A stretch of 63,991 nt of DNA, filler included, from Babesia bigemina (lineage: Eukaryota), in the NCBI RefSeq assembly GCF_000981445.1. It is 4 parts of 4 records of this genome, joined end to end, with 100 filler letters (N's around TTAATTAATTAA, not from the genome) between each part and the next. Parts side by side here need not be neighbours in the genome. Positions count along the whole stretch, not along the records: positions 24,686 to 42,716 come from NW_012237335.1; 3 more parts are not named here. One strand, given 5' to 3'. Numbering within the stretch: position 1 is the stretch's first letter; each line of letters opens with the position of its first letter. The position numbers and the translations under genes were made by a program. This document shows positions 10,921-62,602 of the stretch, in pieces. Under the pieces are notes generated by a model. That model was given only the letters and a program-made list of their open reading frames with translations, made no database searches and was not told the origin of the DNA.

Positions 10921-10948
10921 CCTCGAATCACCTCGCCTTAATACTGCT

Positions 10949-17950: not shown

Positions 17951-18838
17951 CCTTGAATCACCTCGCCTTAATACCGCTATGACCTTTATAAACCTTTATA
18001 ATAACTTGTGCTTTGTCACCCTTCACTTCCCTCTTCCACCTCTTGCCACTGCCATGTCCCATCATGTTCACCCTAACTCCAAATCTCTCGAATTACTTCA
18101 TTATATTAACGCTATGACCTCCATTAATCATTATAATAACTTGTTGATACTGACCATTCTCTCACTGACGATGCTACTAGAAGAGCCTTGCAGGACATTG
18201 ACTCCAAGCTTGTTAGCCTTGGTCACCTGGCTGGACAGCTTGGAGGATTTGTTGGTGAAAGTGAGAGTGTTAAGAAAGCCGTTATATATGCTATTATCGC
18301 CCAAATTAACAGTAATGAAGAGCTTAAAAAGCTTTACTCTTCTCATGTTACTATCCTTTCTGAGTCTGTCAAGCCTGCTGGCAAGGCTGATGACAACCTA
18401 AAAATTAGTGAGCTTAAAGATAAAGTTACCACTGAAATTACGCTTACTGAAGAGGCAATTAAGAATCTTAAGCCTACTGAAAATAACTCTCTTCCTTCCC
18501 CCTCTCCCTCTGCTGAGCTAGCCAAATTGCACTCCAAGTTGGAGGCTTTGAGGAAGGTGGAGAAGCTTTGTGGATTTTATGAGAATCTTAATACTAAACA
18601 AAATGATCCTAAAAAGCTCTTAGATAATTTATGTTCCGGCCTCGAAAAATTCCTCGGCTTCAACTCTGACTCCAAAGGCTACGACGGCAGTGGGATTGTG
18701 TACTCTGACCTGGATAGGCTGTGTGACGCAGTGATGGGATTTTTTGAGTGGTGTGCTTGAGGATGTCAGCGAGAAACAGCCTTACAGTGTGGGTAAAACA
18801 ATACTAATAGAGATTGTTACTGGAGCTTAAAAATAATT
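17951..18838 (+). pseudogene. ves: Truncated, frameshifted duplicate of the leader and 5' end of the ves gene at 43415
   Basis: Essentially identical to 43178-44063, with an extra T at ~18741 and an extra G at ~18822, then an abrupt switch to satellite. May be an assembly artefact. Confidence 0.65.
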
Positions 18839-18844
18839 CGCTCC

Positions 18845-20406
18845 GTAATCCACTCAACATCGCTCCTTAGCGCACTGTACATCGCTCCCTAACCCACTCC
18901 ACATCGCTCCCTAACCCACTCCACATCGCTCCTTTACCCACTCCACATCGCCCCTTAATCCACCCTACATCGCCCCTCTATCCACTCTACATCGCCCCTT
19001 TACCCACTCTACATCGCCCCTTTACCCACTCTACATCGCCCCTTTACCCACTCTACATCGCCCCTTTACCCACTCTACATCGCTCCCTAACCCACTCTAC
19101 ATCGCCCCTTTACCCACTCTACATCGCCCCTTAACCCACCTTACATCGCCCCTCTACCCACTCTACATCGCTCCCTAACCCACTCTACATCGCCCCTTAA
19201 CCCACTCTACATCGCCCCTTTATCCACTCCACATCGCCCCTTAATCCACTCTACATCGCTCCCTTATCCACCCTACATCGCCCCTTAACCCACTCCACAT
19301 CGCCCCTTTATCCACTCCACATCGCTCCCTTAACCCACTCCACATCGCTCCCTAACCCACTCTACATCGCCCCCTAACCCACTCTACATCGCCCCTTAAC
19401 CCACTCCACATCGCTCCTTTATCCACTCTACATCGCCCCTTATCCACTCTACATCGCCCCTCTATCCACTCTACATCGCCCCTTTGTCCACTCTACATCC
19501 CTCCTTTATCCACTCTACATCGCTCCTTATCCACTCTACATCGCTCCCTAACCCACTCTACATCGCCCCCTAACCCACTCCACATCGCCCCCTAACCCAC
19601 TCTACATCGCCCCTTTACACACTCCACATCGCCCCTTAACCCACTCTACATCGCTCCTCTATCCACTCTACATCGCCCCTTACCCACTCTACATCGCTCC
19701 TTAATCCACTCTACATCGCTCCCTAACCCACTCTACATCGCCCCTTAATCCACCCTTCATCGCCCCTTAACCCACTCTACATCGCCCCTTTATCCACTCC
19801 ACATCGCTCCTTAACCCACTCTACATCGCTCCTTTATCCACTCTACATCGCTCCTTTATCCACTCTACATCGCTCCCTTACCCACTCCACATCGCTCCCT
19901 AACCCACTCCACATCGCCCCTTTACCCACTCCACATCGCCCCTTAACCCACTCTTCATCGCCCCTTAACCCACTCTACATCGCCCCTTAATCCACTCCAC
20001 ATCGCTCCTTAACCACTCCACATCGCTCCTTTATCCACTCTACATCGCCCCTTTACCCACTCTACATCGCCCCTTAAACTCCTCTAATCGCTTCTTTATC
20101 CACTCTACATCGCTCCCTCATCCACTCCACATCGCTCCTTTATCCACTCTACATCGCTCCCTAAATCACTCCACATCGCTCCCTAAACCACTCTACATCG
20201 CTCCCTAAACCACTCTACATCGCTCCTTTATCCACTCTACATCGCTCCCTAAACCACTCTACATCGCTCCTTTATCCACTCTACATCGCCCCTTTATCCA
20301 CTCTACATCACCCCTTAACCCACTCTACATCGCCCCTTTGTCCACTCTACATCGCTTCTTTATCCACTCTACATCGCCCCTTTATCCACTCTACATCGCC
20401 CCTTAA
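18845..20406 (+). repeat. 22-bp satellite ending at the retrotransposon 5' junction
   Basis: Direct units; the last ~810 bp are colinear with 9922-10731. Confidence 0.96.
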
Positions 20407-23400
20407 GGAGTTGGAATCTTCTGTGATTTTGGGGGAAACTTTGAGAAACGTGTTTTCTCGGGTTTATCACAGAAAGGAAATTTTTCCGATGTCACTGGGG
20501 GGTGTATTGAAGGCCAAAAGTGCGGAATTAAAGCGGCAACATCGCGAGGCGAAAGGCGGCCACACAGGCGCGCTGGATAGACGAACAAGGTACCAATGGA
20601 GAGCTCACAAGAAGTGCAGCTGAGCAGTCAAATCGATGAGGACGGAGACCTCATGGTTATTGACGTGGACGTCCCCGATGGGATGGACATCGATGCTCCG
20701 CTTGCCACCGTGGGGCGCCGAGAGTGTCGGCAACCCGAAAGGCGGCATGAATCCAGAAAACCGGTACAAAGCGGTGTTCAGGGCCCTAAAGGTAAACCCA
20801 CAAATTCGAAGGGGGCCGGCCGTGGCGGCGAAAGCCGGCCAATCCCGCAGGCAAGCCGGAAACGACACCAGCCCGGAACCACTCCGGCTGTGAAGGGCGC
20901 TGGAAACAAAGCACGGAACGGCGGTCCCCAGGGCCAAAAGGGTAACAACCGGAAGGCCAAAAAGACAGGAAACACGGCTCAAACGCCGCCTGTCGTGGTT
21001 TGCAACGCCGGGCCGAGTTCCTCGGAACGCGCACCCGTGTGTGTGCAGACACTGTCTACCCTGCAGCCACCGGCAGGGGAGGTTGTCGGAAACGGTGGCT
21101 GCCGCTCTCCGACCGTGTATTCCATATCGTCGGATGACTTTATGGACGTGGACGAAGAGGAACCTGAGCAAGTCGGGCCTGTGAGAGAATCAAACAACAG
21201 TATAGCACCGGGCACCGCCAGTGAGGTGGCGCTCACTGAGACGGCTGCGTTGCCGAGGGCACCCGAAGGGCACGCCCCGCAGGCTGAACGGGCCGGGAAC
21301 ACGCCACAAATGCCGCCGAACTACGCTAGGCTGAATGCCAAGTTACAGTTCCTGCACTGTGTCATGCGTCAGATCGATGGACCATGGTGTCATTGGGTAC
21401 CGGACGTCTACAAGGCAGTAGTGACGAAGTATCAGAGGATGCCACGAGGAGGATGGAAAGTCCTCGCGGAATATGCCAACGAGCATTTCGAATTCCACAA
21501 GACCCACAAGGAGGTGGAGCAGATGGCAAGACAGGTAGTCGCCAAAGCAGCGCGGAGCCAACCGACGGACGTTGGAGAAATAGCATCGCTGCACGACGTC
21601 GACTCATACAACGCCCTGCAGGAGGATTTCGACCGGATCATGGCACAGAGGTTGAGGGAGCCTGACCTACTACCGAAGAACAAGAAACCAAAGTCCGCCG
21701 CACAGTACAGGCCGATCACTTGCATGTCCAACCTATACAAGCTAACTACCCGTTGTGCCACGGAGACGCTTAAGCGAGAAGTCGATGGCAGGGGACTACG
21801 GTCCGAGAACCAGATGGGCACGAGGAGCAACGTACAGGGTGCAAAGGAGCACGCGTTAGCGAACATCGCGCTCAACGAGAAGCACAAGGGGAAGTTACTT
21901 GCAACGTGGGTCGACGTCATGAAGGCGTACGACTCAATCGACCACGCGTACCTGGCAAGGGTTATCGACAACCTTAACCTACCAGGGTGGTTATCAAACT
22001 TCATCAAGCAGACGATCAAGAGGTGGAATATAGAGATACGGTGGAACAAGAACACAATCATGCACAAGAAAGTGGAGAGGGGCATTCTCCAAGGCGACAG
22101 CCTATCGCCCCTTCTCTTCGTGCTGTGCTTGGACCCGCTGAGCAGGCACCTGACTCGCATCTTCCCCAAGGTGGAGTTAAGCGTGACCGGCGGCAGGATA
22201 TTCGCCACAAACCACTTTCTCTATATTGACGACCTCAAGTTCTTCGCCCACGAGGAAAGTACGATGAGAGGAATGGGCCGAGAAGTGGAGAAGTTCTTCA
22301 ACGACATAGGACTCAGGATCAACCGCGACAAGTCGGCAACCAACACGGAGGCGTGCGCCAGCATCGCCAAGCAGATGGAAGGCCCGGAAACGTACAAGTA
22401 CTTGGGAGTCACAGAGACTTCAAACTCACTGACAAGCGACGGAATGTTCGACATAATACTACAGGAGATATGCAGGAGAACGGAGCTACTGGCTGCGTCA
22501 AAGCTGTCGGGGAAAAACCTCTCGATGGCCATCAACCAGTACGCCCTCAGCGTCATCAACTACTACATCGGCGTGATCCCTATGGACATCACGCATTTCG
22601 ACAAGATCGACCTGGCAGTACGGAGAATAATTAACGCGAAGCACGGACACAAGAAGTGGGCGAACACACAGAGGCTCTACCTCCCCCGGAAAGAGATGGG
22701 GAGAGGGCTCCACAGCATGGTATTTAGAGCGGAAGCCATGCTGCTACGACTGTGGTTGACGCTTTCAGCAGACGAGGTGACGTCAACCAGGAGAGCTGCG
22801 ATCATGCAGCATTTTCGCGACACATACGCGCACATATCTCACATCAAGATGCACCTGGAAGGAAGATATGGAATGGAATTCGGAATGGAGGACACTACGG
22901 ACAAGAGCCTCAGGGACCTCAGGGTGGCCCAAAACAAATGGCTGTACAACAGAATGCACGTAAAATCAACTCATAAGGTTCTGTATGCCAAGCGTGAGGA
23001 CCCCAAGCTGGACATTGAGGCGTCGTCCTTGTACCTGACGTGTGGAATACTCACTCCGGAAGAAGAAGCGAACGTAGCGGAAGTCCAGGATAGGAATCTG
23101 CAATGGATGTCTTCGTCCAAGAAATGCACAAGATGCAACAACGGCAAGAACGTGGATCACCTCGCGACGAAGTGCCAGAAACTACTACACCTAGAATATA
23201 CGAAGAGGCACAACGAGGTAGCAAAACGGGTCCACTCAGTACTCGGGAGGCAAATAGGACTACCCAAGGAGAAGATAGACGCCCACAAGATCGAGAGTGA
23301 AGTACATGGAAAATACGGATGGATCGCGTACGACAAGACGGTCAAGACTCAGAAGACTAAGGAATACAACAGGCCAGACATCATCCTGGCGGATCGGCGG

Positions 23401-23896
23401 AGGAACACCATAACCATCGTGGAGATAGGAATCACCAATCAAGACAACCTAGTGGATACGGAGAAGTTCAAGAAGCAGAAGTATGAAGACCTTATTGAGG
23501 ACCTCAAGGCGCGACAGTTTAACCAGCACACCAAGATCAGGGTTATCCCCTACGTTATGACGTGGGAGGGAATAGTGACAAAGGAGCACAGCAAGTACAG
23601 ACGGGACCTGGGCATATCGGATCGCATGGAAGCCCACATACAAAGGGTAGTGATCCAAGAAACACATAAAATAGTGATGAGGGATATGAAGCCGAAAGAA
23701 GACTACGATTCCGTAGAAGACCCTCAAGCCCAAACTGGATGGATGCCCGCATGGATGGCACCAGTGACGTCCGGCAATGGACCGGCGTGGATCCCGCAAC
23801 CGGTTTCAGCGTGAGGCGTTAGCCCCGCAAACACGAAAACCGGCCCTAGGCACGTAGCCACATAGCACACTATAAGATGAGATAACTTAATTTAAC
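20407..23896 (+). mobile_element. Non-LTR retrotransposon copy 1 (RLE type, R4/Dong-like), with candidate 5' end and an internal in-frame deletion
   Basis: Starts where the satellite stops (CCCCTTAA|GGAGTTGG). 189-nt 5' UTR, single ORF, 82-nt 3' UTR ending GATAACTTAATTTAAC, shared with the other two copies. Confidence 0.92.
20596..23814 (+). CDS. Retrotransposon polyprotein: reverse transcriptase + CCHC knuckle + restriction-like endonuclease (1072 aa, lacks RT0 region)
   Basis: YRPITC, ENQMG, DVMKAYDSIDH, GILQGDSLSPLLF, YIDD, GLRIN, YKYLG, LYLPRKEMGRGL, CTRC-x7-H-x4-C, RHNEV, RPDII..IVEI, KKQKY. Confidence 0.93.
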   Translation: MESSQEVQLSSQIDEDGDLMVIDVDVPDGMDIDAPLATVGRRECRQPERRHESRKPVQSGVQGPKGKPTNSKGAGRGGESRPIPQASRKRHQPGTTPAVKGAGNKARNGGPQGQKGNNRKAKKTGNTAQTPPVVVCNAGPSSSERAPVCVQTLSTLQPPAGEVVGNGGCRSPTVYSISSDDFMDVDEEEPEQVGPVRESNNSIAPGTASEVALTETAALPRAPEGHAPQAERAGNTPQMPPNYARLNAKLQFLHCVMRQIDGPWCHWVPDVYKAVVTKYQRMPRGGWKVLAEYANEHFEFHKTHKEVEQMARQVVAKAARSQPTDVGEIASLHDVDSYNALQEDFDRIMAQRLREPDLLPKNKKPKSAAQYRPITCMSNLYKLTTRCATETLKREVDGRGLRSENQMGTRSNVQGAKEHALANIALNEKHKGKLLATWVDVMKAYDSIDHAYLARVIDNLNLPGWLSNFIKQTIKRWNIEIRWNKNTIMHKKVERGILQGDSLSPLLFVLCLDPLSRHLTRIFPKVELSVTGGRIFATNHFLYIDDLKFFAHEESTMRGMGREVEKFFNDIGLRINRDKSATNTEACASIAKQMEGPETYKYLGVTETSNSLTSDGMFDIILQEICRRTELLAASKLSGKNLSMAINQYALSVINYYIGVIPMDITHFDKIDLAVRRIINAKHGHKKWANTQRLYLPRKEMGRGLHSMVFRAEAMLLRLWLTLSADEVTSTRRAAIMQHFRDTYAHISHIKMHLEGRYGMEFGMEDTTDKSLRDLRVAQNKWLYNRMHVKSTHKVLYAKREDPKLDIEASSLYLTCGILTPEEEANVAEVQDRNLQWMSSSKKCTRCNNGKNVDHLATKCQKLLHLEYTKRHNEVAKRVHSVLGRQIGLPKEKIDAHKIESEVHGKYGWIAYDKTVKTQKTKEYNRPDIILADRRRNTITIVEIGITNQDNLVDTEKFKKQKYEDLIEDLKARQFNQHTKIRVIPYVMTWEGIVTKEHSKYRRDLGISDRMEAHIQRVVIQETHKIVMRDMKPKEDYDSVEDPQAQTGWMPAWMAPVTSGNGPAWIPQPVSA

Positions 23897-24585
23897 GTAG
23901 TTATATCAATCAAGCACATATATCTAGAGGGAAACTCAATGGAGAATATTACCTACAGAAGCTTGGTGAAGGTTTAAAGGATGCAATACATAAGCAGTTT
24001 AAGAAGGTGGTAGTTGGAGAAGAGGAAGAAGATATAGATCTTAAAACACTTAACAAGGATTATTACAACGAAACTGTGAAAGATGCCGAAGTAGCACACG
24101 ACAAACTTAGAGGCATGATTCAAGCTTTTAAAGGGCCAGTTGAAAAAGACGGTTTCACTGGTAATGCAGCATCAGCAAGATTTGTCGCTAAGGATATGCC
24201 GGGTTACCGAACAGGCACAATAGGCACGCCAAAAGGTAAAAAAGATGAGTACGACATCGCCTTAAACAATGTTGACACCGCGCTTAAAGCATTCGAGACT
24301 GAAGGCTGTGTCGATCATATTGAAGGCGAAGAAGCCGACATTCAACAAAAGAAAGATGAACTTGGTGGCTTCGTCACCGAAATCACTAACGAACTAAATG
24401 ACATTGGAGTTTTAATTGACAGCACCTCAGGTGTGGTAGTGAACAGACAGATGATGTCTGCAGATCCACAAGGCCTCAAGCAGAAGTTCATTGACTTGAG
24501 AAGTAAAATCGGCAGAACCATCGGTGTTGAAACAGTCAGGATAGGCACTCTTCAGAAAATTCATGACGATATGACTACTTTAAGA
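23896..24585 (+). pseudogene. ves: Internal ves-like coding fragment starting at the retroelement 3' end, cut by the gap
   Basis: Frame is open from 23896 (RSYINQAH...). GLKQKFIDLRSKIGRT resembles GRLTELKRRIGRT and GVKRKITDLRHMI in the other ves ORFs. Confidence 0.65.
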
Positions 24586-24685
24586 NNNNNNNNNNNNNNN
24601 NNNNNNNNNNNNNNNNNNNNNNNNNNNNNTTAATTAATTAANNNNNNNNNNNNNNNNNNNNNNNNNNNNNNNNNNNNNNNNNNNN
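24586..24685. other. Artificial contig linker N44-TTAATTAATTAA-N44
   Basis: Identical 100-nt stop-codon spacer occurs three times. Confidence 0.97.
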
Positions 24686-34677: not shown

Positions 34678-35680
34678 GATGTAGAGTGGGTTAGGGAGCG
34701 ATGTAGAGTGGATAAAGGGGCGATGTAGAGTGGATAAAGGGGCGATGTAGAGTGGGTTAAGGGGCGATGTAGAGTGGGTTAGGGAGCGATGTAGAGTGGA
34801 TAAAGGAGCGATGTAGAGTGGGTAAAGGAGCGACGTAGAGTGGATAAGGGGCGATGTGGAGTGGGTTAGGGAGCGATGTAGAGTGGATAAAGTGGCGATG
34901 TAGAGTGGATTAGGGAGCGATGTAGAGTGGGTTAAGGGGCGATGTAGAGTGGGTTAGGGAGCGATGTAGAGTGGGTAAAAGGGCGATGTGGAGTGGATAA
35001 AGGGGCGATGTGGAGTGGAGTAAGGAGCGATGTAGAGTGGGTTAAGGGGCGATGTGGAGTGGATAAAGGGGCGATGTAGAGTGGGTTAAGGGGCGATGTA
35101 GAGTGGGTTAAGGGGCGATGTGGAGTGGGCTAGGGAGCGATGTAGAGTGGATAAAGGGGCGATGTAGAGTGGGTTAGGGAGCGATGTGGAGTGGGTTAAG
35201 GAGCGATGTAAGGTGGTAAAGGGGCGATGTAGAGTGGGTTAAGGGAGCGATGTAGAGTGGGTTAGGGAGCGATGTAGAGTGGGTTAGGGAGCGATGTGGA
35301 GTGGGTTAGGGAGCGATGTGGAGTGGATAAAGGGGCGATGTAGAGTGGGTTAGGGAGCGATTAGAGAAGGTTAAGGAGCGATGAAGGGTGGGTTAGGGAG
35401 CGATGTAGAGTGGGCTAAGGAGCGATGTAGAGTGGGTAAAAGGGCGATGTGGAGTGGATAAAGGGGCGATGTGGAGTGGAGTAAGGAGCGATGTAGAGTG
35501 GGTTAAGGGGCGATGTGGAGTGGATGAAGGGGCGATGTAGGGTGGATAAAGGGGCGATGTAGAGTGGATAAAGGGGCGATGTAGAGTGGATAAGGGGCGA
35601 TGTAGGGTGGGTTAAGGAGCGATGGAGAGTGGATAAAGGGGCGATGTGGAGTGGGTTAGTGAGCGATGTAGAGTGGATAA
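34678..35680 (-). repeat. 22-bp satellite
   Basis: Direct periodicity. Confidence 0.97.
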
Positions 35681-36800: not shown

Positions 36801-39800
36801 TTACGGTTGCAGGTAAAACACTCTGTTAAGCTTGTTAACACGCGCAGCAGCAAGTAGTGATTGAGCTGCTATACGATGTGATGAGGGACTATGTAAATGC
36901 GATTTGATGTGGAGCAGGTCTAGGCGGATGACCATGATCTGGAGGAGGTAGAGAAGGGAGAGGAGCCAGAGCGCGACGTTGAGCCAGATGAAGGGGGCGC
37001 GGATGGTGAAGAGGAAATTGTCGCATTGCTTGAATAACGTTTCGAAGTATTTGGATTCAAGCACTGACTTGAGTTGTGTATAGAAATTAAAGCACATTTT
37101 TTGTCTATGCTTGGCGTTCAATTTGGCAGCATCACCAAACGTAAATCCGTGTTGATATAACGTTGGCCAAACGCCGTTACAGCTTACAACGGAGAGACAT
37201 CTACACGTTTTGTCAAGGGTTCCATGCTGCCCTTGTCTACATTTTGCGCTGCTCATACATTTTTTGCATCCCCAGTCTTGACATATGATACGGGTGAAGG
37301 CGTCAAGTAAGGATTGAAGCATTTGATATAAAGACCAAGGTAGGTAGACTGCCCATGACACGTATACGTCAGCATGCTTTGGGGCAAGGTATAAGTAAGA
37401 ATCATGGCATAGCGATTGAAGGTAAGGAGCGCATTGCTGGCCGGAACATAAGTTCGTATTCTTCGGTAAGCAGACACTAATTACGTCGGCGTGTTGAGTG
37501 TCGGCGTGCGATAAGTCATTGTCAGCATCGTTATGCTTGTGCCCATAGATGCTTCTGAATGTATCACAAAGTTCGGCAGTATCGTTGACTAGCTTTATGG
37601 ACAGCTTTTTAATCGAGCCTTCAAATGCATATTGCACCACGTGCTTGTTCGCTGAATATATCTTCTGCCAATTTCCGAAAAGCTGCGTTACAAAACTCAA
37701 ATGTTCGGGCAGAGTGGACGGCGGCTTCGGAGCTAGGCAGAGGAGCGATGAAAGTAGGCTGCCGCCGAAGAATTGACGAAGTACCTCACATAAGTCGTAA
37801 CCCGTTTTGGTTGATCCAGAGAACGCTCTAAAGCCAAGCGGAGTTAGGCACGGCATTCCTCGTTTATTAGTAGGGCACGTGGAACATTTGGCTTTGCAGC
37901 CGATGTCGCTTAGGTGGTGCGGTAAATGACCCGGCAGGCAGTCACCCAGGTAGGACATCAAGGGGGACGTAGGTTGGCAGTTTGCCTGGCAATTTGGTTC
38001 GCACTTTGTTTTGCAATTTGGTTTGCACGTTGAGTGTTGTTTGCATTGAGATTTGGCAGTAGAGGCATCTCTGCCGTACTGACAATTGCGCCAACCGTTA
38101 TGCTCAGCTGAAATACCACATCGGTAGAACAAATATTTCAGCGGTGGTAACAGCCGATGGACGACGTCAAGAATAGTCTGAAGGCACTCTTCACCGGAGG
38201 TAGGGTAATAGAATTTCATGGAGTTGTTCAACATATCGCAACCATACGTCGTGTATGCGTTACCAGTTCCAACAACCGTTACCAATATTTCGTATGATTT
38301 TGAACAGAGGTGGCCGAGCACTTTAGCGGTGTTCTTATACGTTATCTTATGTGGATATGCGTCTATATATGACGCTTGCAGATCAAGTACCGGAGTGCCT
38401 TCTATATCGCCGGATGGCTTGTTTGGATCAATGAAAGGATCACTGATACCGTCTACTAACAACGCGGAATATACTGGGTTATACGGCAATCCGCTGAACC
38501 AGCAGAGCATTTGGTATATATTACAGGGCGCTTTCGCACCGGGAATATGGGCCAAGTGAGAGACTTGGTAGTACGCCTCCAGATAATAGCAAACCAGGTA
38601 CAGTGGGCCTTCATCCTTGGCATCATCGTGACTAGTGTAGACTTTTTTAGTCGGACCGATCATACGACCGAGAATATGTGCGCCAGTCATACCCGATGCG
38701 TCTTGCAACTCCCCGTTCTGCTCACCGTCGCTGGAGATTTCGAAACCTAGTCCTACGAAGTGTTTGCCAAGATCCGCTGATGTGTTAAGTTGTTGTTTGG
38801 GCAGACTCTTGCAATTGCGCTTAACATCATGCAGCGACGTTTTCAAGATTGACAGCAGAGTGACAAAAGCTTTGGCGCATTGTAGACCGTATTCTGTCAC
38901 TCCCGTGGTTAACACCTCCGTCCAACTGAAATGCGTTGGAGCGCCGGAATACTTATTCACGTACGCCTTGTCAAGTTCGCAGTGCAACCGGTGGAAACCA
39001 TCTTTCAAGATGTTGAGCAGAACGTTCTGCTGTCCGTTGAATAAGGTGGGTTGTATTTCGGTGAGTAACTGATTAACTGCGGCTAGGTTGTCAACAAACT
39101 GCGCATCGTATTTGCTAAGTCCGGTTAAAAGCGTACTAAGGGCTGCTAATAGGTCGGGAATTTGGGGATGTCTGCATCCGATGTCCTTCCGCGACTGCAA
39201 CTCGTTTAGCAACCCGCTGAAGAGCAGATTAACGTCGAACCAAAAATCGGAGAGTGTCGCATTGTACTGTAGTTGCTCATTGAATGCAGTGAACCTAAAC
39301 GTTTCCTGAAGCAATCCCATGAAGCCCTTGAAACCCTTAGTGGCGTCTGCTGTGACCTTATCGGGGAGACCACCAAGTTCGTTGGCTACTTTGTCACATA
39401 ATGCCTGAATGTTCAACTTCATGAATATAACGTGACTTGTTCTAATATCTTCTAAAATTGCCGATTGTGCTGCATCGAGGTGTTCGTTGATATGTAGTTC
39501 AACATCTCCGATGATCTTATTTTGTTGACTAGAGGCGTGGTTGGCGATGCCTTGAGTTTGTGATATCAGTGGATCCATGCGCTCTGTTAGCAGTTTGATT
39601 AAGTCTTTCATAATTTTCTTCAAGCCTTTCTGAACTTGACCCCCAATATTATATTCATCGTTGTTGATCATGTGTCGCAGATCCGTTATTTTTCTTTTTA
39701 CACCGTCTTCGTGTTGGTCGTCAGCCGCATTGATGATAGCTGTGCAGAGGGTGACGATTTTTTTGCGAATGATATCGGTTGCGTTTTTTTCAATAGATGT

Positions 39801-41392
39801 GGCATTAATATTTTCTTCTAAAATTTTCAAAGGTTGCAATGCTGATTTTTGGAGTGTCCGAATTTTCCCCTTAATCGTATTATCACGAAATTCATCATCA
39901 CCTATATGTTCCGTATAACTTGTCATAAGATCCTTGACACTATCAGCCTGACGATGAGCCTCTTCAAATCTCAGCTCTACTTCCTTCTGAAGATTTCTAT
40001 TGAGAGTGCCATTGAGGTCGTTAATTTTTACTTTGATCTGGTCAAATGCTTTCTGAATTTCTTCACCAATATCTCCTGAGTCTTCGTCCGTATTAATCTT
40101 AACACCGATTTCTGCGACATCGGTAATAGCCTGAGTCAGGTTTGCAATGTGGGAAGAAGTGAAGAATGTTTCTATTGATTTGCCAAATGTTGAAGCAGCA
40201 GTATGCAGAAATTTAAAGACGATTTCCAAGACGGATCGCAAATTATTATTCGATGAAGTAAGTCCAAGCGATTTTACCCTAACATCTTGCTCAATACCTT
40301 GCACAAATAGTTTAATTTTTTCATCGTCAATCTCACCCTTTATTTCTGCGGCAATCGTATCAAGGAACTGCTTTATGTTTTTTAACTTCTGATCAATGCT
40401 TTCACTTCCCGAGCTTTGTAACCGAACTTTTCCGAGACGTTCTATAATCTTATCCTTGGTAACATTCCTTACTGCATCAACCTCATCGGGCTTAGCTGCG
40501 TAATATCCAATATAAAATGTCACTACCTTGCTATTCCAAACTTCATCAAACCACTTACCGACTGTGCATTGATCCGCGTCACCATCATCTTTTATTGCGA
40601 ATTTCTCGAACGCCGTGACGTACGTGTCAACTCCTTGATACATCTGAGTTAATCCCTTACCGGAACCAGTCAAACCATTAACAAGTTCTTTGATCTCATC
40701 TTTAAGATCGACCCATTTCTCTATAACACCTGTGTTATCATCGTCACCAATCGTGTTGTTTTTTATCCCCGCAAAATGCTTCTTTGCCTGATCAACAAAC
40801 GCAGTAATTGTCAGATCAATTGTTCCTTTCAAAGTTGACAAATCCTTCGTTATAGCGACATCCAACTTTTCAACTGCCTTCGTGACTTCTTCTACCAATG
40901 GTGGTAATGCTTTCTCTGACGCTTTATAGGCGTTATACAATTTCAGAGCGTTAGTCTTTAATTCTGAAACGGCCTTCTCAAGTTTTAACCTGTTATGTGT
41001 GCCTAAGGTTCCACTTGCTTCTGAAATGATATCGTTTACCCGTCGAAACGCTTCGTCGAGCGCGGTCTCCGCTTTTTTAATCCATGCCTCCAATTCCCTT
41101 ATATAACCCATGAAGGTGTCGTTAATCTTTCTCAGATCCTGTTTCAGTTCAACAATTTTCTGATTCATACCTCTTACAAATCTTCTAATTTGTTCCGCCA
41201 CTTGTGAATTTATCTGTTGCTTCGCCGAACTCATCACATCGGTCACTTTTGTCTCCACTCGTCGCACTTTAATATTTTGATATGTCCAAATTTCGTGCAG
41301 TCTATCACGTTGGTATTTTATTCCTTGTGTTACCATGTGAATCTCATTGTTTAAAGTATTCTGCAAATCGTGGATATCATCATGTTCCCCTT
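36801..41392 (-). pseudogene. ves: ves gene 5'-truncated by the retrotransposon; subfamily-1 body with tail type B
   Basis: Frame stays open up to the element end (GEHDDIHDLQNTL...); lacks the YSDLDRLCD N-terminus found in all intact copies. Confidence 0.8.
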
Positions 41393-42716
41393 GTTAAATT
41401 AAGTTATCTCATCTTATAGTGTGCTATGTGGCTACGTGCCTAGGGCCGGTTTTCGTGTTTGCGGGGCTAACGCCTCACGCTGAAACCGGTTGCGGGATCC
41501 ACGCCGGTCCATTGCCGGACGTCACTGGTGCCATCCATGCGGGCATCCATCCAGTTTGGGCTTGAGGGTCTTCTACGGAATCGTAGTCTTCTTTCGGCTT
41601 CATATCCCTCATCACTATTTTATGTGTTTCTTGGATCACTACCCTTTGTATGTGGGCTTCCATGCGATCCGATATGCCCAGGTCCCGTCTATACTTGCTG
41701 TGTTCTTTCGTCACTATTCCCTCCCACGTCATAACGTAGGGGATAACCCTGATCTTGGTGTGCTGGTTAAACTGTCGCGCCTTGAGGTCCTCAATAAGGT
41801 CTTCATACTTCTGCTTCTTGAACTTCTCCGTATCCACTAGGTTGTCTTGATTGGTGATTCCTATCTCCACGATGGTTATGGTGTTCCTCCGCCGATCCGC
41901 CAGGATGATGTCTGGCCTGTTGTATTCCTTAGTCTTCTGAGTCTTGACCGTCTTGTCGTACGCGATCCATCCGTATTTTCCATGTACTTCACTCTCGATC
42001 TTGTGGGCGTCTATCTTCTCCTTGGGTAGTCCTATTTGCCTCCCGAGTACTGAGTGGACCCGTTTTGCTACCTCGTTGTGCCTCTTCGTATATTCTAGGT
42101 GTAGTAGTTTCGGGCACTTCGTCGCGAGGTGGTCCACGTTCTTGCCGTTGTTGCATCTTGAGCATTTCTTGGACGAAGTCATCCATTGCAGATTCCTGTC
42201 CTGGACTTCTGCTACCTTCGCTTCTTCTTCCGGGGTGAGTATTCCACACGTCAGGTACAATGACGACGCCTCGATGTCCAGCTTGGGGTCCTCACGCTTG
42301 GCATACAGAACCTTATGAGTTGATTTTACGTGCATTCTGTTGTACAGCCATTTGTTTTGGGCCACCCTGAGGTCCCTGAGGCTCTTGTCCGTAGTGTCCT
42401 CCATTCCGAATTCCATTCCATATCTTCCTTCCAGGTGCATCTTGATGTGAGATATGTGCGCGTATGTGTCGCGAAAATGCTGCATGATCGCAGCTCTCCT
42501 GGTTGACGTCACCTCGTCTGCTGAAACGTCAACCACAGTCGTAGCAGCATGGCTTCCGCTCTAAATACCATGCTGTGGAGCCCTCTCCCCATCTCTTTCC
42601 GGGGGAGGTAGAGCCTCTGTGTGTTCGCCCACTTCTTGTGTCCGTGCTTCGCGTTAATTATTCTCCGTACTGCCAGGTCGATCTTGTCGAAATGCGTGAT
42701 GTCCATAGGGATCACG
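41393..42716 (-). mobile_element. Retrotransposon copy 2 (3' 1.3 kb, cut by the gap; 1-bp frameshift at ~42526)
   Basis: Reverse complement of ~22572-23896, including the 3' UTR; encodes the CCHC and RLE domains (ORF 41475-42536). Confidence 0.92.
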
Positions 42717-42816
42717 NNNNNNNNNNNNNNNNNNNNNNNNNNNNNNNNNNNNNNNNNNNNTTAATTAATTAANNNNNNNNNNNNNNNNNNNNNNNNNNNN
42801 NNNNNNNNNNNNNNNN
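42717..42816. other. Artificial contig linker
   Basis: N44-TTAATTAATTAA-N44. Confidence 0.97.
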
Positions 42817-43177
42817 CTCCACATCGTTCCTTAACCCACTCTACATCGCCCCTTTACCCACTCTACATCGCCCCTTCATCCACTCTACATCGCTCCCTAA
42901 CCCACCTTACATCGCCCTTTAACCCACTCCACATCGCCCCTTTACCCACCTTACATCGCTCTTTTACCCACTCTACATCGCTCCCTAACCCACTATACAT
43001 CGCTCCCTAACCCACTCTACATCGCCCCTTTACCCACTCTACATCGCCCCTTTACCCACTCTACATCGCCCCTTTATCCACTCTACATCGCCCCTTAACC
43101 CACTCTACATCGCCCCTTTATCCACTCTACATCGCCCCTTTATCCACTCTACATCGCTCCCTAACCCACTCTACATC
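42817..43177 (+). repeat. 22-bp satellite
   Basis: Direct periodicity. Confidence 0.96.
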
Positions 43178-43414
43178 CCTTGAATCACCTCGCCTTAATA
43201 CCGCTATGACCTTTATAAACCTTTATAATAACTTGTGCTTTGTCACCCTTCACTTCCCTCTTCCACCTCTTGCCACTGCCATGTCCCATCATGTTCACCC
43301 TAACTCCAAATCTCTCGAATTACTTCATTATATTAACGCTATGACCTCCATTAATCATTATAATAACTTGTTGATACTGACCATTCTCTCACTGACGATG
43401 CTACTAGAAGAGCC

Positions 43415-46400
43415 TTGCAGGACATTGACTCCAAGCTTGTTAGCCTTGGTCACCTGGCTGGACAGCTTGGAGGATTTGTTGGTGAAAGTGAGAGTGTTAA
43501 GAAAGCCGTTATATATGCTATTATCGCCCAAATTAACAGTAATGAAGAGCTTAAAAAGCTTTACTCTTCTCATGTTACTATCCTTTCTGAGTCTGTCAAG
43601 CCTGCTGGCAAGGCTGATGACAACCTAAAAATTAGTGAGCTTAAAGATAAAGTTACCACTGAAATTACGCTTACTGAAGAGGCAATTAAGAATCTTAAGC
43701 CTACTGAAAATAACTCTCTTCCTTCCCCCTCTCCCTCTGCTGAGCTAGCCAAATTGCACTCCAAGTTGGAGGCTTTGAGGAAGGTGGAGAAGCTTTGTGG
43801 ATTTTATGAGAATCTTAATACTAAACAAAATGATCCTAAAAAGCTCTTAGATAATTTATGTTCCGGCCTCGAAAAATTCCTCGGCTTCAACTCTGACTCC
43901 AAAGGCTACGACGGCAGTGGGATTGTGTACTCTGACCTGGATAGGCTGTGTGACGCAGTGATGGGATTTTTGAGTGGTGTGCTTGAGGATGTCAGCGAGA
44001 AACAGCCTTACAGTGTGGGTAAAACAATACTAATAGAGATTGTTACTGAGCTTAAAAATAATTTATCCACCGGGCGTGAGGGTTTTAAGTTCATTGCGCA
44101 GGTGGCGGATAGGGTGCGGGGGTATAATGAGAGTGTTAGAAAGCAGAATGACTACGTCAAAGAAAAAATGAAATTGTTGACTTCAGATATGCAAACAATT
44201 AAATGCGAGGTGGGTGAAATACTCCAGGATGAAGAAACTATCGAAGCGGGAAGAATTTATCGAGCTGTGGATAACGTGAATGGTAAGTTGGAAGTTGGCA
44301 TTAGAAAAACCAAGGACTATTTGGGCTATATATCGTCGGTGCCAAATATCCTTAGTGACTTTAATTTACGTCTGAAACATAAAGTAGAAAACGTCAATAT
44401 GAGTGTCAAACATGAGTACGATAGGCTTTGTGACATGTCAGACAAGGAGAAAAAAGATCATAATGATATGGAGGTAATGATAAAAACGGCGCATGAAAAT
44501 TTAAGAAAGAGTGTTAATGATAAAGTTGAATATGAAATAACGGAGTTGATTTATAGGTTTAAGAAGAGTGTCACGGAACTGCAAAAAAAATTGCAAAAGA
44601 TTAACGAAGGTCTTGCATATTATGCTAGAAATGTCTACTCGTGGATTGAGAAAGCTGATAAAATTATGCAGACGGCTTTGGATTTAATAACGAAGATTTT
44701 GGAGGAGGTAAAACATCCTGCGTGTTCCGATTCGAATAAGGATAATCTTGAAAAAGCCAGCAAGGCGTTGAGAGATAAGGCGTATGAGCTTTTCAATGCT
44801 GGTACCAAGGCAAACGATGCGGTGCAGCAGTACGTTAAAGCAGCGCTAGGGCAGGTAAAAGAAATGGATGGGAAGCTGAAGGAGGATTTGTACAAGGTGA
44901 AGCAGGCTGTTAGTAGGCAGGTGGAGGAAATTAAGACGGCGATTGGGAAGTTGTATAAAGTTGTTGAGAGCGGAAGTGCGGAAGGAGCAGATGAACATAA
45001 GAAAAAAGTTGACACACTTATTAAGCATATCAAAGGCAGAATCGGGGCGATAAAAGGAGAAGGAAGAAACACTAATGGTCTTGATTTCATTAGGAGAGGT
45101 GTAATAACGTATGTAACGGGATACAATAAAAAATTTGAAACAGAGAATTTGTTGAAGTGGGTGAAGAAGGTGGTTAGTTTGAGCGACGATGCGGAGGGTT
45201 ATGTCGAAATGTACCTTAGCGGTATTCATGATGAGCTGACGGACGAACATAAGTACGGTCAGCAAACCCTGGCTAAAATTACTGAGCTACTTAAGACTAC
45301 TATTACAGCCGAGCTTCATAAAATTGCAGCAAAACATACGATCGATCTCAACCACAATGGCAATATTGATGTAAACTTAAAATCGATCCAGAAATTTTTA
45401 GATAAACTAAACAGTGGTGCTTTACAACAACTAACGAAGACAATTGTCGATCATATTCAGCAGCAGTTACAGCGTGGCGGTGTTGTACGCGAAATTCCTA
45501 CGCAAACAGACGATCTTAGCCAAGCCGTCAGAATAGTCCTACATGCCGTATCTACGGCCACAGATAGATTGGGGGAAGAGATTAATGAACTCGTAGAAAC
45601 ATGCAAATTACAGAACATTACACATACGATGAATTCAATCACAGTGCTCTTCGATAAGTTTGACAATGCACTTGGATTGAATGCTCCTCTCACCTTCGGC
45701 GCCCAAAGCACCAACCACGCCGCCGCCGTCGACTCCGCGATCACGGAGGTTACGACTGAGCTTGGAAGGCAGTTGCCTCCTGAAGGTGGTAACAAGGCAC
45801 AGAGTCATGTACAGCTTAATAAAGGAACATTCACCGCATACGAAAAATTTGTCGTCCAACCCATAAAAGAAGGTGAGCTAACCGGCGCTTCCGACGGTTC
45901 CGAAGGCTCCCTCCCCGCGGCGATCGGTGAGATTAAGACGGAAGTGGAGAAAGCATTGTCCGAGATTGGCAAATTCAATGGTGACTCTCAGCAGGAGTTA
46001 GCAAAAGTCACCTCCAAAATCGATGCACTATGTTCCACTATCAAGCAGGCAGCGGGAGACGAAGAAGGGCTGAAGAAAGTATTAACCGAATTTAAAAAAG
46101 AGGAAATTTCCAAAGGCGTCGACAAAAAAGGCCTGCAAGCGCTACACAAAAAAATTACTGAGCTAAGAGAAAATAATTTGGTCGCCTCCATCAGAGACAC
46201 TGAAGGATTGCTTATATTAGCAGACATGGAAAGAACAACTTTTATAGACACTCTTCGGAAACATATCGACTACCAAGTTAATGTTGCCCAAACCGCTCTT
46301 CTGAGAACCGCCCGCCGCAACTACGTCACCTCCGTCAAGGCGCTCCTCACCGCGTTCGCGGACAAGGTCGGCCAGGAGTTGAAGGGGTTGCCGGGGGAGA

Positions 46401-59457: not shown

Positions 59458-59557
59458 NNNNNNNNNNNNNNNNNNNNNNNNNNNNNNNNNNNNNNNNNNN
59501 NTTAATTAATTAANNNNNNNNNNNNNNNNNNNNNNNNNNNNNNNNNNNNNNNNNNNN
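59458..59557. other. Artificial contig linker
   Basis: N44-TTAATTAATTAA-N44. Confidence 0.97.
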
Positions 59558-62423
59558 TCGGGAAAGAAGGAGGCAGCTGAGAGGAGGATCAAGGAGCTGG
59601 AGGAGATAGGAGCATTACTTCTGAAATACAAGCAGAAGGTCCCCCTGGAGAAGGAGGATAGGAAACGCGTTTATCGCCAAATGGACAAGTACAACATGAT
59701 CGCGGACAAGCCGCAGGAACTGTCATACGTGATCAGCAGGACTCAAGAGGAGCTCCAAAAGGAGCAGGACAAACTCAAGAACGCCAAGTTCAAGAAGGAG
59801 TTGTACAACGACAACCGCATGTTCGAGCTCTACACGGGACACTTCTACAGGACACTGGAGAACAAGCAGGACGCGGACGAGTCGGCGATAAACGAGGGGA
59901 TGATGATAGAGTACTGGGCGCAAATGTGGGTGAAGCCAAACGCACCGCACAACGGTGAAGGATATCTGGTCGAAAGACCACCGGCAGAGAACAAGGCAGG
60001 CTTTCCCACATACGAGGAATTCGTCACGATCGTCAAGAAATTGCGAGACTGGAAGTCGCCCGGTGCGGATGGGATCTACAACTACTACATTAAATGGCTC
60101 ACGTCCCTTCACAGAGTCATTTACAGGCTAGTAGAGGAGGTATGCCAGCAAGGCAAAGTGCAGGACGACTGGTTCTACTGTGGGATCACGTACCTACTAC
60201 CGAAGAACAAGAAACCAAAGTCCGCCGCACAGTACAGGCCGATCACTTGCATGTCCAACCTATACAAGCTAACTACCCGTTGTGCCACGGAGACGCTTAA
60301 GCGAGAAGTCGATGGCAGGGGACTACGGTCCGAGAACCAGATGGGCACGAGGAGCAACGTACAGGGTGCAAAGGAGCACGCGTTAGCGAACATCGCGCTC
60401 AACGAGAAGCACAAGGGGAAGTTACTTGCAACGTGGGTCGACGTCATGAAGGCGTACGACTCAATCGACCACGCGTACCTGGCAAGGGTTATCGACAACC
60501 TTAACCTACCAGGGTGGTTATCAAACTTCATCAAGCAGACGATCAAGAGGTGGAATATAGAGATACGGTGGAACAAGAACACAATCATGCACAAGAAAGT
60601 GGAGAGGGGCATTCTCCAAGGCGACAGCCTATCGCCCCTTCTCTTCGTGCTGTGCTTGGACCCGCTGAGCAGGCACCTGACTCGCATCTTCCCCAAGGTG
60701 GAGTTAAGCGTGACCGGCGGCAGGATATTCGCCACAAACCACTTTCTCTATATTGACGACCTCAAGTTCTTCGCCCACGAGGAAAGTACGATGAGAGGAA
60801 TGGGCCGAGAAGTGGAGAAGTTCTTCAACGACATAGGACTCAGGATCAACCGCGACAAGTCGGCAACCAACACGGAGGCGTGCGCCAGCATCGCCAAGCA
60901 GATGGAAGGCCCGGAAACGTACAAGTACTTGGGAGTCACAGAGACTTCAAACTCACTGACAAGCGACGGAATGTTCGACATAATACTACAGGAGATATGC
61001 AGGAGAACGGAGCTACTGGCTGCGTCAAAGCTGTCGGGGAAAAACCTCTCGATGGCCATCAACCAGTACGCCCTCAGCGTCATCAACTACTACATCGGCG
61101 TGATCCCCATGGACATCACGCATTTCGACAAGATCGACCTGGCAGTACGGAGAATAATTAACGCGAAGCACGGACACAAGAAGTGGGCGAACACACAGAG
61201 GCTCTACCTCCCCCGGAAAGAGATGGGGAGAGGGCTCCACAGCATGGTATTTAGAGCGGAAGCCATGCTGCTACGACTGTGGTTGACGCTTTCAGCAGAC
61301 GAGGTGACGTCAACCAGGAGAGCTGCGATCATGCAGCATTTTCGCGACACATACGCGCACATATCTCACATCAAGATGCACCTGGAAGGAAGATATGGAA
61401 TGGAATTCGGAATGGAGGACACTACGGACAAGAGCCTCAGGGACCTCAGGGTGGCCCAAAACAAATGGCTGTACAACAGAATGCACGTAAAATCAACTCA
61501 TAAGGTTCTGTATGCCAAGCGTGAGGACCCCAAGCTGGACATTGAGGCGTCGTCCTTGTACCTGACGTGTGGAATACTCACTCCGGAAGAAGAAGCGAAC
61601 GTAGCGGAAGTCCAGGATAGGAATCTGCAATGGATGTCTTCGTCCAAGAAATGCACAAGATGCAACAACGGCAAGAACGTGGATCACCTCGCGACGAAGT
61701 GCCAGAAACTACTACACCTAGAATATACGAAGAGGCACAACGAGGTAGCAAAACGGGTCCACTCAGTACTCGGGAGGCAAATAGGACTACCCAAGGAGAA
61801 GATAGACGCCCACAAGATCGAGAGTGAAGTACATGGAAAATACGGATGGATCGCGTACGACAAGACGGTCAAGACTCAGAAGACTAAGGAATACAACAGG
61901 CCAGACATCATCCTGGCGGATCGGCGGAGGAACACCATAACCATCGTGGAGATAGGAATCACCAATCAAGACAACCTAGTGGATACGGAGAAGTTCAAGA
62001 AGCAGAAGTATGAAGACCTTATTGAGGACCTCAAGGCGCGACAGTTTAACCAGCACACCAAGATCAGGGTTATCCCCTACGTTATGACGTGGGAGGGAAT
62101 AGTGACAAAGGAGCACAGCAAGTACAGACGGGACCTGGGCATATCGGATCGCATGGAAGCCCACATACAAAGGGTAGTGATCCAAGAAACACATAAAATA
62201 GTGATGAGGGATATGAAGCCGAAAGAAGACTACGATTCCGTAGAAGACCCTCAAGCCCAAACTGGATGGATGCCCGCATGGATGGCACCAGTGACGTCCG
62301 GCAATGGACCGGCGTGGATCCCGCAACCGGTTTCAGCGTGAGGCGTTAGCCCCGCAAACACGAAAACCGGCCCTAGGCACGTAGCCACATAGCACACTAT
62401 AAGATGAGATAACTTAATTTAAC
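59558..62423 (+). mobile_element. Retrotransposon copy 3 (5' end lost in the gap; complete RT including RT0)
   Basis: From 60192 on it is near-identical to 21665-23896, with the same 3' end. Confidence 0.93.
59681..62341 (+). CDS. Retrotransposon RT-CCHC-RLE polyprotein, 5'-partial (frame open back to 59558)
   Basis: WKSPGADGI (RT0), YRPITC, QGDSLSP, YIDD, YKYLG, CCHC, RHN, PD..E, KxxKY. Confidence 0.93.
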   Translation: MDKYNMIADKPQELSYVISRTQEELQKEQDKLKNAKFKKELYNDNRMFELYTGHFYRTLENKQDADESAINEGMMIEYWAQMWVKPNAPHNGEGYLVERPPAENKAGFPTYEEFVTIVKKLRDWKSPGADGIYNYYIKWLTSLHRVIYRLVEEVCQQGKVQDDWFYCGITYLLPKNKKPKSAAQYRPITCMSNLYKLTTRCATETLKREVDGRGLRSENQMGTRSNVQGAKEHALANIALNEKHKGKLLATWVDVMKAYDSIDHAYLARVIDNLNLPGWLSNFIKQTIKRWNIEIRWNKNTIMHKKVERGILQGDSLSPLLFVLCLDPLSRHLTRIFPKVELSVTGGRIFATNHFLYIDDLKFFAHEESTMRGMGREVEKFFNDIGLRINRDKSATNTEACASIAKQMEGPETYKYLGVTETSNSLTSDGMFDIILQEICRRTELLAASKLSGKNLSMAINQYALSVINYYIGVIPMDITHFDKIDLAVRRIINAKHGHKKWANTQRLYLPRKEMGRGLHSMVFRAEAMLLRLWLTLSADEVTSTRRAAIMQHFRDTYAHISHIKMHLEGRYGMEFGMEDTTDKSLRDLRVAQNKWLYNRMHVKSTHKVLYAKREDPKLDIEASSLYLTCGILTPEEEANVAEVQDRNLQWMSSSKKCTRCNNGKNVDHLATKCQKLLHLEYTKRHNEVAKRVHSVLGRQIGLPKEKIDAHKIESEVHGKYGWIAYDKTVKTQKTKEYNRPDIILADRRRNTITIVEIGITNQDNLVDTEKFKKQKYEDLIEDLKARQFNQHTKIRVIPYVMTWEGIVTKEHSKYRRDLGISDRMEAHIQRVVIQETHKIVMRDMKPKEDYDSVEDPQAQTGWMPAWMAPVTSGNGPAWIPQPVSA

Positions 62424-62602
62424 ATAGGAAGAGGTCATAGCGTTAATATAACGAAGTAATTCGAAGGATTTGGAGATAGGGTGAATATGATGGGACACGG
62501 CAGTGGCAAGAGGTGGAAGAGGGGAAGTGAAGGGTGACAAAGCACAAGTTATTATTGTGGTTTAAAGAGGTCATAGCGGTATTATGGCGAGGTGATTCAA
62601 GG
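62424..62602 (-). promoter_or_regulatory. ves leader remnant interrupted by retrotransposon copy 3
   Basis: Matches ~34505-34677. Confidence 0.75.

What the first reader, a model, noticed from the sequence alone, without database searches (positions are those of the whole stretch)
41340..41420. All three element 3' ends land in ves loci, at different sequences
Seen: copy 2 abuts ves coding DNA in sense and truncates the gene at 41392; copy 1 abuts internal ves-like coding DNA in sense (23897); copy 3 sits antisense in a ves leader (62424). The 3' flanks GTAGTT, AAGGGG and ATAGGA share no motif. Known: RLE elements usually target a fixed sequence in multicopy genes or repeats. Inference: the element targets, or is only tolerated in, the redundant ves compartment, where its nuclease, RT or dispersed homology could feed antigen diversification.
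Basis: partly seen in the sequence, partly recalled or inferred. Interest (0 to 1): 0.8.

Follow-up and report, generated by a model that had tools for sequence, protein, structure and literature searches.

The report
Babesia retrotransposon crowds antigen genes
A young jumping gene (a LINE-type retrotransposon) of the cattle parasite Babesia bigemina sits in or beside the parasite's variable surface-antigen (ves1) genes at unrelated DNA sequences, likely because copies that land elsewhere in this compact genome are purged.

Summary
The three junctions are real, at the stated coordinates, with unrelated flanks. All three lie in ves1b-type loci; the copy-1 flank is 228/228 identical to an annotated B. 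bigemina ves1b-cluster protein. Inside this window that proves little: it is four contigs joined by artificial linkers, and its non-element DNA is almost all ves-locus DNA (chance of 3/3 at least 0.26).

The claim does hold outside the window. In the published B. bigemina reference, 10 of 10 chromosomal RT gene-model loci lie within two genes of a ves1 gene (background 7.3%, p 4e-12). The element is a 4,315-bp, single-ORF, RLE-type non-LTR retrotransposon, young and without a fixed target. It is not ves-specific as a family: only 1-2 of 6 B. ovata loci are at ves1, and T. equi, which has no ves-like family, carries it.

Best reading: survival in the main dispensable compartment (0.5). Close rival: region-level targeting (0.37). 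A role in antigen diversification is untested. LINE-like elements in Babesia are published; I did not find the ves1 confinement in print.

The parts
20407..23896 (+). Element copy 1: both ends present, with an in-frame 825-nt internal deletion at 21664/21665 just upstream of the RT core; ATG 20596, stop 23812-23814, 82-nt 3' UTR
   Evidence: 5' end at 20407 fixed by a different flank in X1/X3; '825 letters between' at 21664/21665 in 3 of 4 runs; Pfam RVT_1 E 3e-30
41393..42716 (-). Element copy 2, 3' part only (cut by a contig end), with a 1-nt deletion near 42526
   Evidence: 10 synonymous and 4 non-synonymous differences from copy 1
59558..62423 (+). Element copy 3, cut at the 5' side by a contig start; ORF open over 927 aa with RT, CCHC and PD-(D/E)xK motifs
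36801..41392 (-). ves1b-type ORF abutted in sense by copy 2; starts at about residue 325-330 of paralogs
23902..24585 (+). Internal ves1b coding DNA abutted in sense by copy 1 (residues 423-650 of P0170/CDR71700)
   Evidence: 228/228 identity; cluster #1 membership
23897..23900 (+). Probable junction filler, not explained by the uninterrupted protein
   Evidence: inference
62430..62602 (-). ves1b leader entered antisense by copy 3; 62424-62429 is probable filler
   Evidence: X1 holds a leader that continues without the element (loose end before 62431)
18850..20406 (+). 22-bp satellite forming the 5' flank of copy 1, in the orientation it has upstream of ves leaders
24586..24685 (.). Artificial contig linker N44-TTAATTAATTAA-N44
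42717..42816 (.). Artificial contig linker; cuts copy 2
59458..59557 (.). Artificial contig linker; cuts copy 3

Best explanation
A young RLE-type non-LTR retrotransposon of Babesia bigemina lies in or beside ves1 antigen genes at unrelated sequences and in both orientations, likely because its nuclease has relaxed sequence specificity and the ves1 arrays are the main place where a 4.3-kb insertion survives in a compact genome. SHOWN: element anatomy; near-identical copies; unrelated junctions; 10 of 10 chromosomal reference loci within two genes of ves1; at copy 1 the 5' part of a ves1b gene is missing and the element adjoins the satellite. INFERRED: insertion by target-primed reverse transcription with a few filler bases and no clear target-site duplication; purging of insertions outside dispensable DNA; an effect on the ves repertoire that is mainly loss of individual paralogs, with possible but unshown ectopic recombination between copies.
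For: ANATOMY: one 1347-aa ORF with YIDD (818), CCHC (1119), RHN (1146), PD..E (1201) and KxxKY (1234); only RVT_1 in Pfam. YOUTH: 8 of the 9 other members of the P0001 cluster are 96.8-99.9% identical to it and one is 92.6%; 10 synonymous vs 4 non-synonymous changes between copies 1 and 2. NO FIXED TARGET: four read 3' flanks differ; sites range from the leader to mid-CDS. ENRICHMENT: 10 of 10 within two gene models of ves1 vs 7.3% background; under a length-weighted null, P(at least 9 of 10) is 3e-8 or lower. TOLERANCE RATHER THAN VES RECOGNITION: in B. ovata 5 of 6 main-contig loci lie at some multigene family (mfs twice, cluster 3, ves2/ves1a, ves-like CDS; background 0.19, p 0.001) but only 1 of 6 is within two genes of ves1; one B. 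bigemina copy (CDR96052) lies between two cluster-3 gene models; T. equi has a 13-member cluster and no ves-like family. Jackson et al. raise, as one of two possibilities, that ves positions are regions of weak purifying selection (PMC4066756).
Against: Survival alone needs ves1 loci to be about 60-70% or more of all tolerated DNA: P(at least 9 of 10) is 0.011 at a 50% share and 0.15 at 70%. That is demanding in a genome that is only 66% coding. Non-ves1 sites are evidently tolerated in B. ovata, yet 0 of 10 B. bigemina loci are near the listed ves2 or mfs genes; the species difference is significant (Fisher p 0.001-0.008). A slot-based test against other multigene families gives p 0.001 for ves1, though it ignores the larger size of ves1 units. 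Most RLE elements are target-specific (PMC4640811), so a hidden positional rule remains possible.
Confidence: 0.5

Rival explanations
1. The element is directed to ves1 loci as a region, not a sequence: it is tethered to their chromatin or satellite, or captured at DNA breaks made during ves1 recombination.
For: 10 of 10 at ves1, 0 of 10 near listed ves2 or mfs; all 14 unplaced copies have an adjacent ves1-cluster accession (background 0.74, p 0.014). ves1 recombines more than ves2 (PMC4066756 abstract). Multigene families are H3K9me3 heterochromatin in Babesia MO1 (PMC11370697). Filler bases, no duplication and a missing 5' gene part at copy 1 resemble break capture (interpretation from general knowledge). 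A conserved helical N-terminal domain could act as a tether.
Against: B. ovata and T. equi copies are not ves1-confined. The N-terminal domain is shared with microsporidian-type relatives and matched no solved fold. Only fixed, selected copies were examined.
Confidence: 0.37
2. The element is a co-opted part of antigenic variation: its nuclease, RT or dispersed homology generates new ves1 variants that are selected for.
For: Copy 1 joins a satellite 5' flank to a mid-CDS 3' flank, as recombination between two copies would. B. ovata RT gene models have RPKM 15-740. Jackson et al. report frequent ves1 transposition and note an earlier suggestion that ves1-alpha arose by retrotranscription.
Against: B. 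bovis has ves variation without detected TEs. The events seen interrupt genes, and the element ends with stops in all three frames. About 24 gene-model copies face several hundred ves1 genes. Copy 1's structure is explained equally well by a deletion at insertion or a misjoin.
Confidence: 0.06
3. The association is an assembly or annotation artefact: repeat-broken contigs binned together and misjoined through the element.
For: True for the window: four contigs, two copies cut by contig ends. 17951-18838 duplicates 43178-44063 at 99.8% with single-base insertions near its end. 14 of 24 reference gene models lie on ves-rich unplaced contigs. The reference has 8x coverage.
Against: The 10 chromosomal loci are dispersed along the chromosome assemblies and all adjoin ves1. 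Gene models fusing RT to ves-like sequence occur in three species (P0130, P0136, P0008).
Confidence: 0.05

Closest known systems
LINE-like TEs of Babesia bigemina, B. ovata, B. divergens and Theileria equi (Rodriguez and Makalowski 2022, PMC9141347)
   Same: Very probably this family: same species pattern, 0.97% of the B. bigemina genome; MGEScan called three B. divergens copies 'LINE R2'.
   Different: That paper's main text has 0 occurrences of 'ves' or 'target'; no ends, nuclease type or insertion sites are described in the passages seen. Its supplements were not seen.
RLE-encoding non-LTR retrotransposons (CRE, R2, R4, NeSL, HERO clades; PMC4640811)
   Same: Single ORF, central RT, C-terminal CCHC and PD-(D/E)xK nuclease.
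   Different: No fixed target sequence, so it behaves like the non-specific HERO elements rather than R2. No N-terminal CxxC zinc finger is visible in P0001. Solved R2 and L1 proteins score only 32-45 bits. Motifs recall the R4/Dong clade (from memory, untested).
ingi/RIME and L1Tc in trypanosome VSG arrays and RHS genes
   Same: Non-LTR elements concentrated in variable multigene compartments of a blood parasite (recalled; only a search listing seen).
   Different: Those are APE-type elements, and RHS genes carry a defined insertion hot spot (recalled); here the nuclease is RLE-type and no hot spot is seen.
Microsporidian RT-domain elements (Vairimorpha, Hamiltosporidium, Enteropsectra)
   Same: Closest named non-piroplasm relatives: mostly 34-43% identity, in several cases over 70-95% of the query; a Hamiltosporidium member shares the N-terminal W..RMPRxGW domain.
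   Different: Babesia copies form their own clade (SH-like 100); T. equi branches apart at unresolved nodes (FastTree, midpoint root), so neither vertical descent nor transfer is shown.

Membership tests
RLE-encoding non-LTR retrotransposon | Single long ORF with an RT domain and YxDD motif | tested here: met
   P0001 1347 aa, 100% to copy 3; RVT_1 E 8e-31; YIDD at 818
RLE-encoding non-LTR retrotransposon | C-terminal CCHC knuckle followed by a PD-(D/E)xK nuclease | tested here: met
   CCHC 1119, RHN 1146, PD..E 1201, KxxKY 1234; similar motifs in T. equi and microsporidian homologs. Activity not tested.
RLE-encoding non-LTR retrotransposon | No AP endonuclease, no terminal repeats | tested here: met
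   Only RVT_1 in Pfam; no repeat between the two ends of copy 1 in the self-BLAST
RLE-encoding non-LTR retrotransposon | Constant 3' end, variable 5' truncation | tested here: inconclusive
   3' end identical in 3 window copies and in X1. Internal 'before' loose ends in X2, X4 and X5 could be truncations or diverged subfamilies.
RLE-encoding non-LTR retrotransposon | Target-site duplication | tested here: inconclusive
   None in copy 1 and none between the X1 5' and 3' flanks, but neither pair is proven to come from one insertion event; copies 2 and 3 lack their 5' ends.
Sequence-specific RLE elements (R2, most R4, NeSL, CRE) | Fixed target sequence in a multicopy gene or repeat | tested here: not met
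   Four different 3' flanks, two different 5' flanks, both orientations, leader to mid-CDS. A weak motif cannot be excluded at this n.
R4/Dong clade | RT phylogeny with reference R4, Dong or EhRLE proteins | not tested
   No labelled R4 reference came from any call; the resemblance is recalled only.
R2 clade | N-terminal zinc finger(s) plus Myb domain; 28S rDNA target | tested here: not met
   No N-terminal CxxC in P0001; the N-terminal helical model (pLDDT 81.5) had no Foldseek match at E 0.001 or better; the flanks are not rDNA.
BbigVes1b (flanking genes) | Homology to annotated ves1b/ves1ba proteins including the conserved C-terminal region | tested here: met
   Six window ORFs are 27-38% identical to the ves part of CDR96979 (labelled ves1ba) and to CDR71700 (cluster #1)
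BbigVes1b (flanking genes) | Pfam VESA1_N domain | tested here: not met
   0 of 16 ORFs hit it; it is not known to me to be required for ves1b.

The most novel reading that the evidence does not exclude
An autonomous RLE retrotransposon has traded sequence targeting for compartment targeting: in B. bigemina it is steered to ves1 antigen loci (by chromatin or by switching-associated breaks), removes the 5' ends of ves1 genes and seeds 4.3-kb homologies among them, making it a working part of ves1 birth, death and reshuffling.
Probability: 0.2. Interest if true: 0.82.

Novelty: new variant of a known kind. Interest (0 to 1): 0.58.

Why it matters
Piroplasm genomes are largely transposon-free, and B. 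bovis has none detected. A young, autonomous-looking RLE element confined to ves1 loci gives a concrete candidate for part of the frequent loss and movement of ves1 genes that Jackson et al. found between B. bigemina strains, and gives polymorphic markers inside the antigen compartment. For transposon biology it is an RLE element with no fixed target but strong regional confinement, which makes the targeting-versus-survival question testable in a small genome. If survival alone explains it, the result is a clean but familiar 'safe haven' pattern.

Tried and rejected
No whole genome was held for the window, so copies could not be mapped by coordinates; gene order from published accession lists was used instead. 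In-window 3/3 as evidence: rejected. Spread by hitch-hiking on ves gene conversion: not favoured, since every junction read is different. A TTAA target, suggested by copy 1's 5' junction and copy 3's paralogous leaders: does not fit the X1 flanks, left as a lead. Pfam, BLAST and phmmer of the copy-1 flank against window ves ORFs, and a 'longer' homolog search, found nothing; the exhaustive search resolved it. An uninterrupted allele for copy 2's gene: only the window's own protein was found. BOVATA_033840 and CDR94896 first looked like element copies but are myb genes drawn into the cluster by a fusion model; CDR94896 was never counted separately, and the B. ovata count was redone without 033840. 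A Myb identity for the N-terminal domain: no fold match; the wider fold search and the protein atlas were unavailable. Rfam on copy 1: one chance-level match, no ribozyme. No RNA holder listed; X4's RNA status is a guess and was not used. The maximum-likelihood tree did not finish, so FastTree was used. Earlier findings of this scan: none. A supplement search for BBBOND tags found none.

Full report
1. What the window is. The RT of copy 3 is 100% identical to a 1347-aa Babesia bigemina protein, P0001. Three 100-bp linkers (N44-TTAATTAATTAA-N44) at 24586-24685, 42717-42816 and 59458-59557 join four contigs of 24,585, 18,031, 16,641 and 4,434 bp; contig lengths 24,585, 18,031 and 4,434 recur for the window's own proteins. 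No whole genome was held. The non-element DNA is an array of units: 22-bp satellite, shared leader, a 1,500-2,100-aa ORF, then 12/20/24/74-bp repeats. The ORFs have no Pfam VESA1_N hit (0 of 16 proteins) but are 27-38% identical to a reference protein labelled ves1ba and to one in the ves1b cluster.

2. The observation. All three copies end in the same terminal sequence at 23896, 41393 (minus) and 62423, followed by GTAGTT, AAGGGG and ATAGGA. Run X1 ends the element at the same base with a fourth flank. A second X1 contig appears to join the element end to satellite DNA with unknown sequence between (joint 62424-62813; my reading of the table). Copy 2 is in sense with an ORF that begins at about residue 325-330 of two paralogs. 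Copy 3 is antisense in the leader. Copy 1's flank looked unassignable locally (best BLAST score within the shuffle range), but the exhaustive search found 4 proteins: the window's own and three B. ovata 'ebh'-type relatives. The window protein's cluster also holds CDR71700 (P0170), to which the flank is 228/228 identical from residue 423. It is not significant within the window: ves ORFs and leaders are 64% of non-element DNA, so P(3/3) is 0.26, and higher if the satellite counts. Two of the three copies are cut by contig ends.

3. The element. X1 carries it whole: 4,315 bp, from window position 20407 to 23896 plus 825 bases that copy 1 lacks in frame; 3 of 4 runs show those bases. It has one ORF with RT (YIDD 818), a CCHC knuckle (1119) and a PD-(D/E)xK-type nuclease (1201, 1234), and no APE or LTR. 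Copies 1 and 3 differ at 1 position over the shared 2.2 kb. Copy 2 differs from copy 1 by 10 synonymous and 4 non-synonymous changes and a 1-nt deletion. Of the 9 other members of the P0001 cluster, 8 are 96.8-99.9% identical to it and one is 92.6%. This fits a young, constrained, probably active family (inference). Homologs occur in B. ovata, B. caballi, B. divergens and T. equi; the next named relatives are microsporidian. Babesia copies form one clade and T. equi is unresolved (FastTree on 50 selected proteins). A conserved helical N-terminal domain folds confidently but matched nothing solved.

4. Junction anatomy. P0170 has no RT residues and lies on a 9,103-bp contig, too short for the gene plus a full element, so it is probably the uninterrupted allele. 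A gene model that splices out a shorter copy cannot be excluded from protein alone, because the junction contains an AG. Bases 23897-23900 do not fit its codons, and 62424-62429 are absent from the paralogous leaders, so both are probably filler. Residues 1-422 of P0170 have no close match in the window; copy 1's 5' neighbour is instead the satellite, in the orientation it has upstream of ves leaders. The element thus stands where a leader and the 5' part of a ves1b gene would be. A deletion at insertion, recombination between two copies, or a misjoin would all give this; an error-bearing duplicate just upstream (17951-18838) keeps the misjoin open. No target-site duplication is seen in copy 1 or in the X1 flanks.

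5. Test outside the window. PMC5660447 Table S2 (parts 1-9 of 61 read) lists 25 B. bigemina accessions in the RT cluster: 14 on unplaced contigs and 11 on chromosomes. One of the 11 (CDR94896) is a myb gene, leaving 10 loci. I took accession order as gene order, which agrees with four locus tags. All 10 lie within two gene models of one of 143 chromosomal members of ves1-containing clusters, and 7 of 10 are adjacent (background 7.3% and 4.3%; p 4e-12 and 3e-8). With ves1 units of 5-8.5 kb and my assumed chromosome total of 10.5-11.5 Mb, P(at least 9 of 10) is 3e-8 or lower. 0 of 10 lie near the 29 ves2-cluster genes read (of 116 ves2 reported) or the 38 mfs genes; 1 of 10 sits between two cluster-3 genes. 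All 14 unplaced copies have a ves1-cluster neighbour, but the background is 74% and neighbours may cross contig ends. Gene models fuse the RT to ves-like sequence in B. bigemina (P0130), B. ovata (P0136, on both sides) and B. caballi (P0008, VESA1_N); such fusions can only show sense insertions. Limits: only copies with gene models were counted; cluster members without a ves label were included; reference and window may share insertions by descent.

6. Results against ves specificity. In B. ovata, after dropping the myb gene and leaving out two loci on small contigs, 1 of 6 loci is inside or within two genes of ves1 (2 of 6 within three), two adjoin mfs genes, one adjoins a cluster-3 gene and one has no listed family within five genes. 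One of the six (006670) is a diverged RT outside the cluster. T. equi has a 13-member cluster and no ves-like family (PMC3505731). B. bovis has ves variation and no detected TEs.

7. Mechanism. Most likely (0.5): relaxed-specificity insertion plus survival in the largest dispensable compartment. It needs ves1 to be about 60-70% or more of tolerated DNA, which is demanding, so regional targeting or break capture is a close rival (0.37). A selected role in antigen diversification has no direct evidence (0.06). Artefact explains the window but not the chromosomal result (0.05).

8. Literature. PMC9141347: part 2 of 5 of the text and passages; it reports LINE-like TEs in these species, with 0 occurrences of 'ves' or 'target'. 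PMC4066756: passages; 0 occurrences of 'reverse transcriptase'. PMC5660447: passages and supplement rows. PMC10463595: passages; it notes an RT gene cluster in B. caballi without linking it to ves in the passages seen. PMC4640811, PMC4202319, PMC3505731, PMC11370697: passages. PMC10471129: term search with no hits. Trypanosome papers: search listing only; the ingi/RHS and R4/Dong comparisons are recalled. I did not find the ves1 confinement in the searches. Subscription journals, Repbase and the supplements of PMC9141347, PMC4066756 and PMC10463595 were not seen and could hold it.

9. Verdict. The association is real in the reference, without a fixed target, and not family-wide. New variant of a known kind; interest 0.58.

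Noticed in passing
window 24586-24685, 42717-42816, 59458-59557: Artificial six-frame-stop linkers; the four contigs are in descending size order, as in a bin of unplaced contigs. Adjacency across linkers means nothing.
   Followed up: yes
window 17951-18838 vs 43178-44063: 99.8% duplicate of a ves leader and 5' CDS, with two single-base insertions near its end, then a degenerate satellite start; the upstream satellites match for only about 100 bp. A recent partial duplication or a misjoin.
   Followed up: partly
window 21664/21665: In-frame 825-nt deletion in copy 1, absent from the three runs that span it.
   Followed up: partly
window 9790-10920, 16601-17950, 34678-35680, 42829-43177, 49682-51536, 62603-63991 and others: A 22-bp satellite lies directly upstream of each ves1b leader, and 12-, 20-, 24- and 74-bp repeats follow the genes: a stereotyped ves1b unit.
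   Followed up: no
window 10921-11008: This ves unit's leader jumps straight to sequence matching about 18491, so it lacks several hundred bases of leader and 5' CDS relative to paralogs.
   Followed up: no
window 9208-9357: Isolated copy of the last ~50 codons of a ves1b gene (84% identical to P0170 1621-1669).
   Followed up: no
window 62200-62430 (element 3' end): Summed contig depth in runs X2, X4 and X5 rises several-fold over the last ~200 nt, with diverged variants ending at 62402-62413: possibly many short or SINE-like copies of an older subfamily, which the gene-model count would miss.
   Followed up: no
window 23884-23896: The element's last bases hold TAA in all three frames, so any sense read-through stops there.
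   Followed up: no
window 21298-21663: N-terminal helical domain with a W..RMPRxGW motif conserved from piroplasm to microsporidian-type relatives; confident model, no fold match.
   Followed up: partly
P0108 (B. ovata BOVATA_048230) and CDR94894/CDR94896: A B. ovata copy is fused to a myb-like gene model, and a B. bigemina copy lies two genes from a myb gene: a shared old insertion, or repeated hits at the edge of a ves array.
   Followed up: no
PMC5660447 Table S1 (B. ovata RT gene models): RT gene models of this kind show RPKM 15-740, suggesting transcription in culture; multi-mapping not excluded.
   Followed up: no
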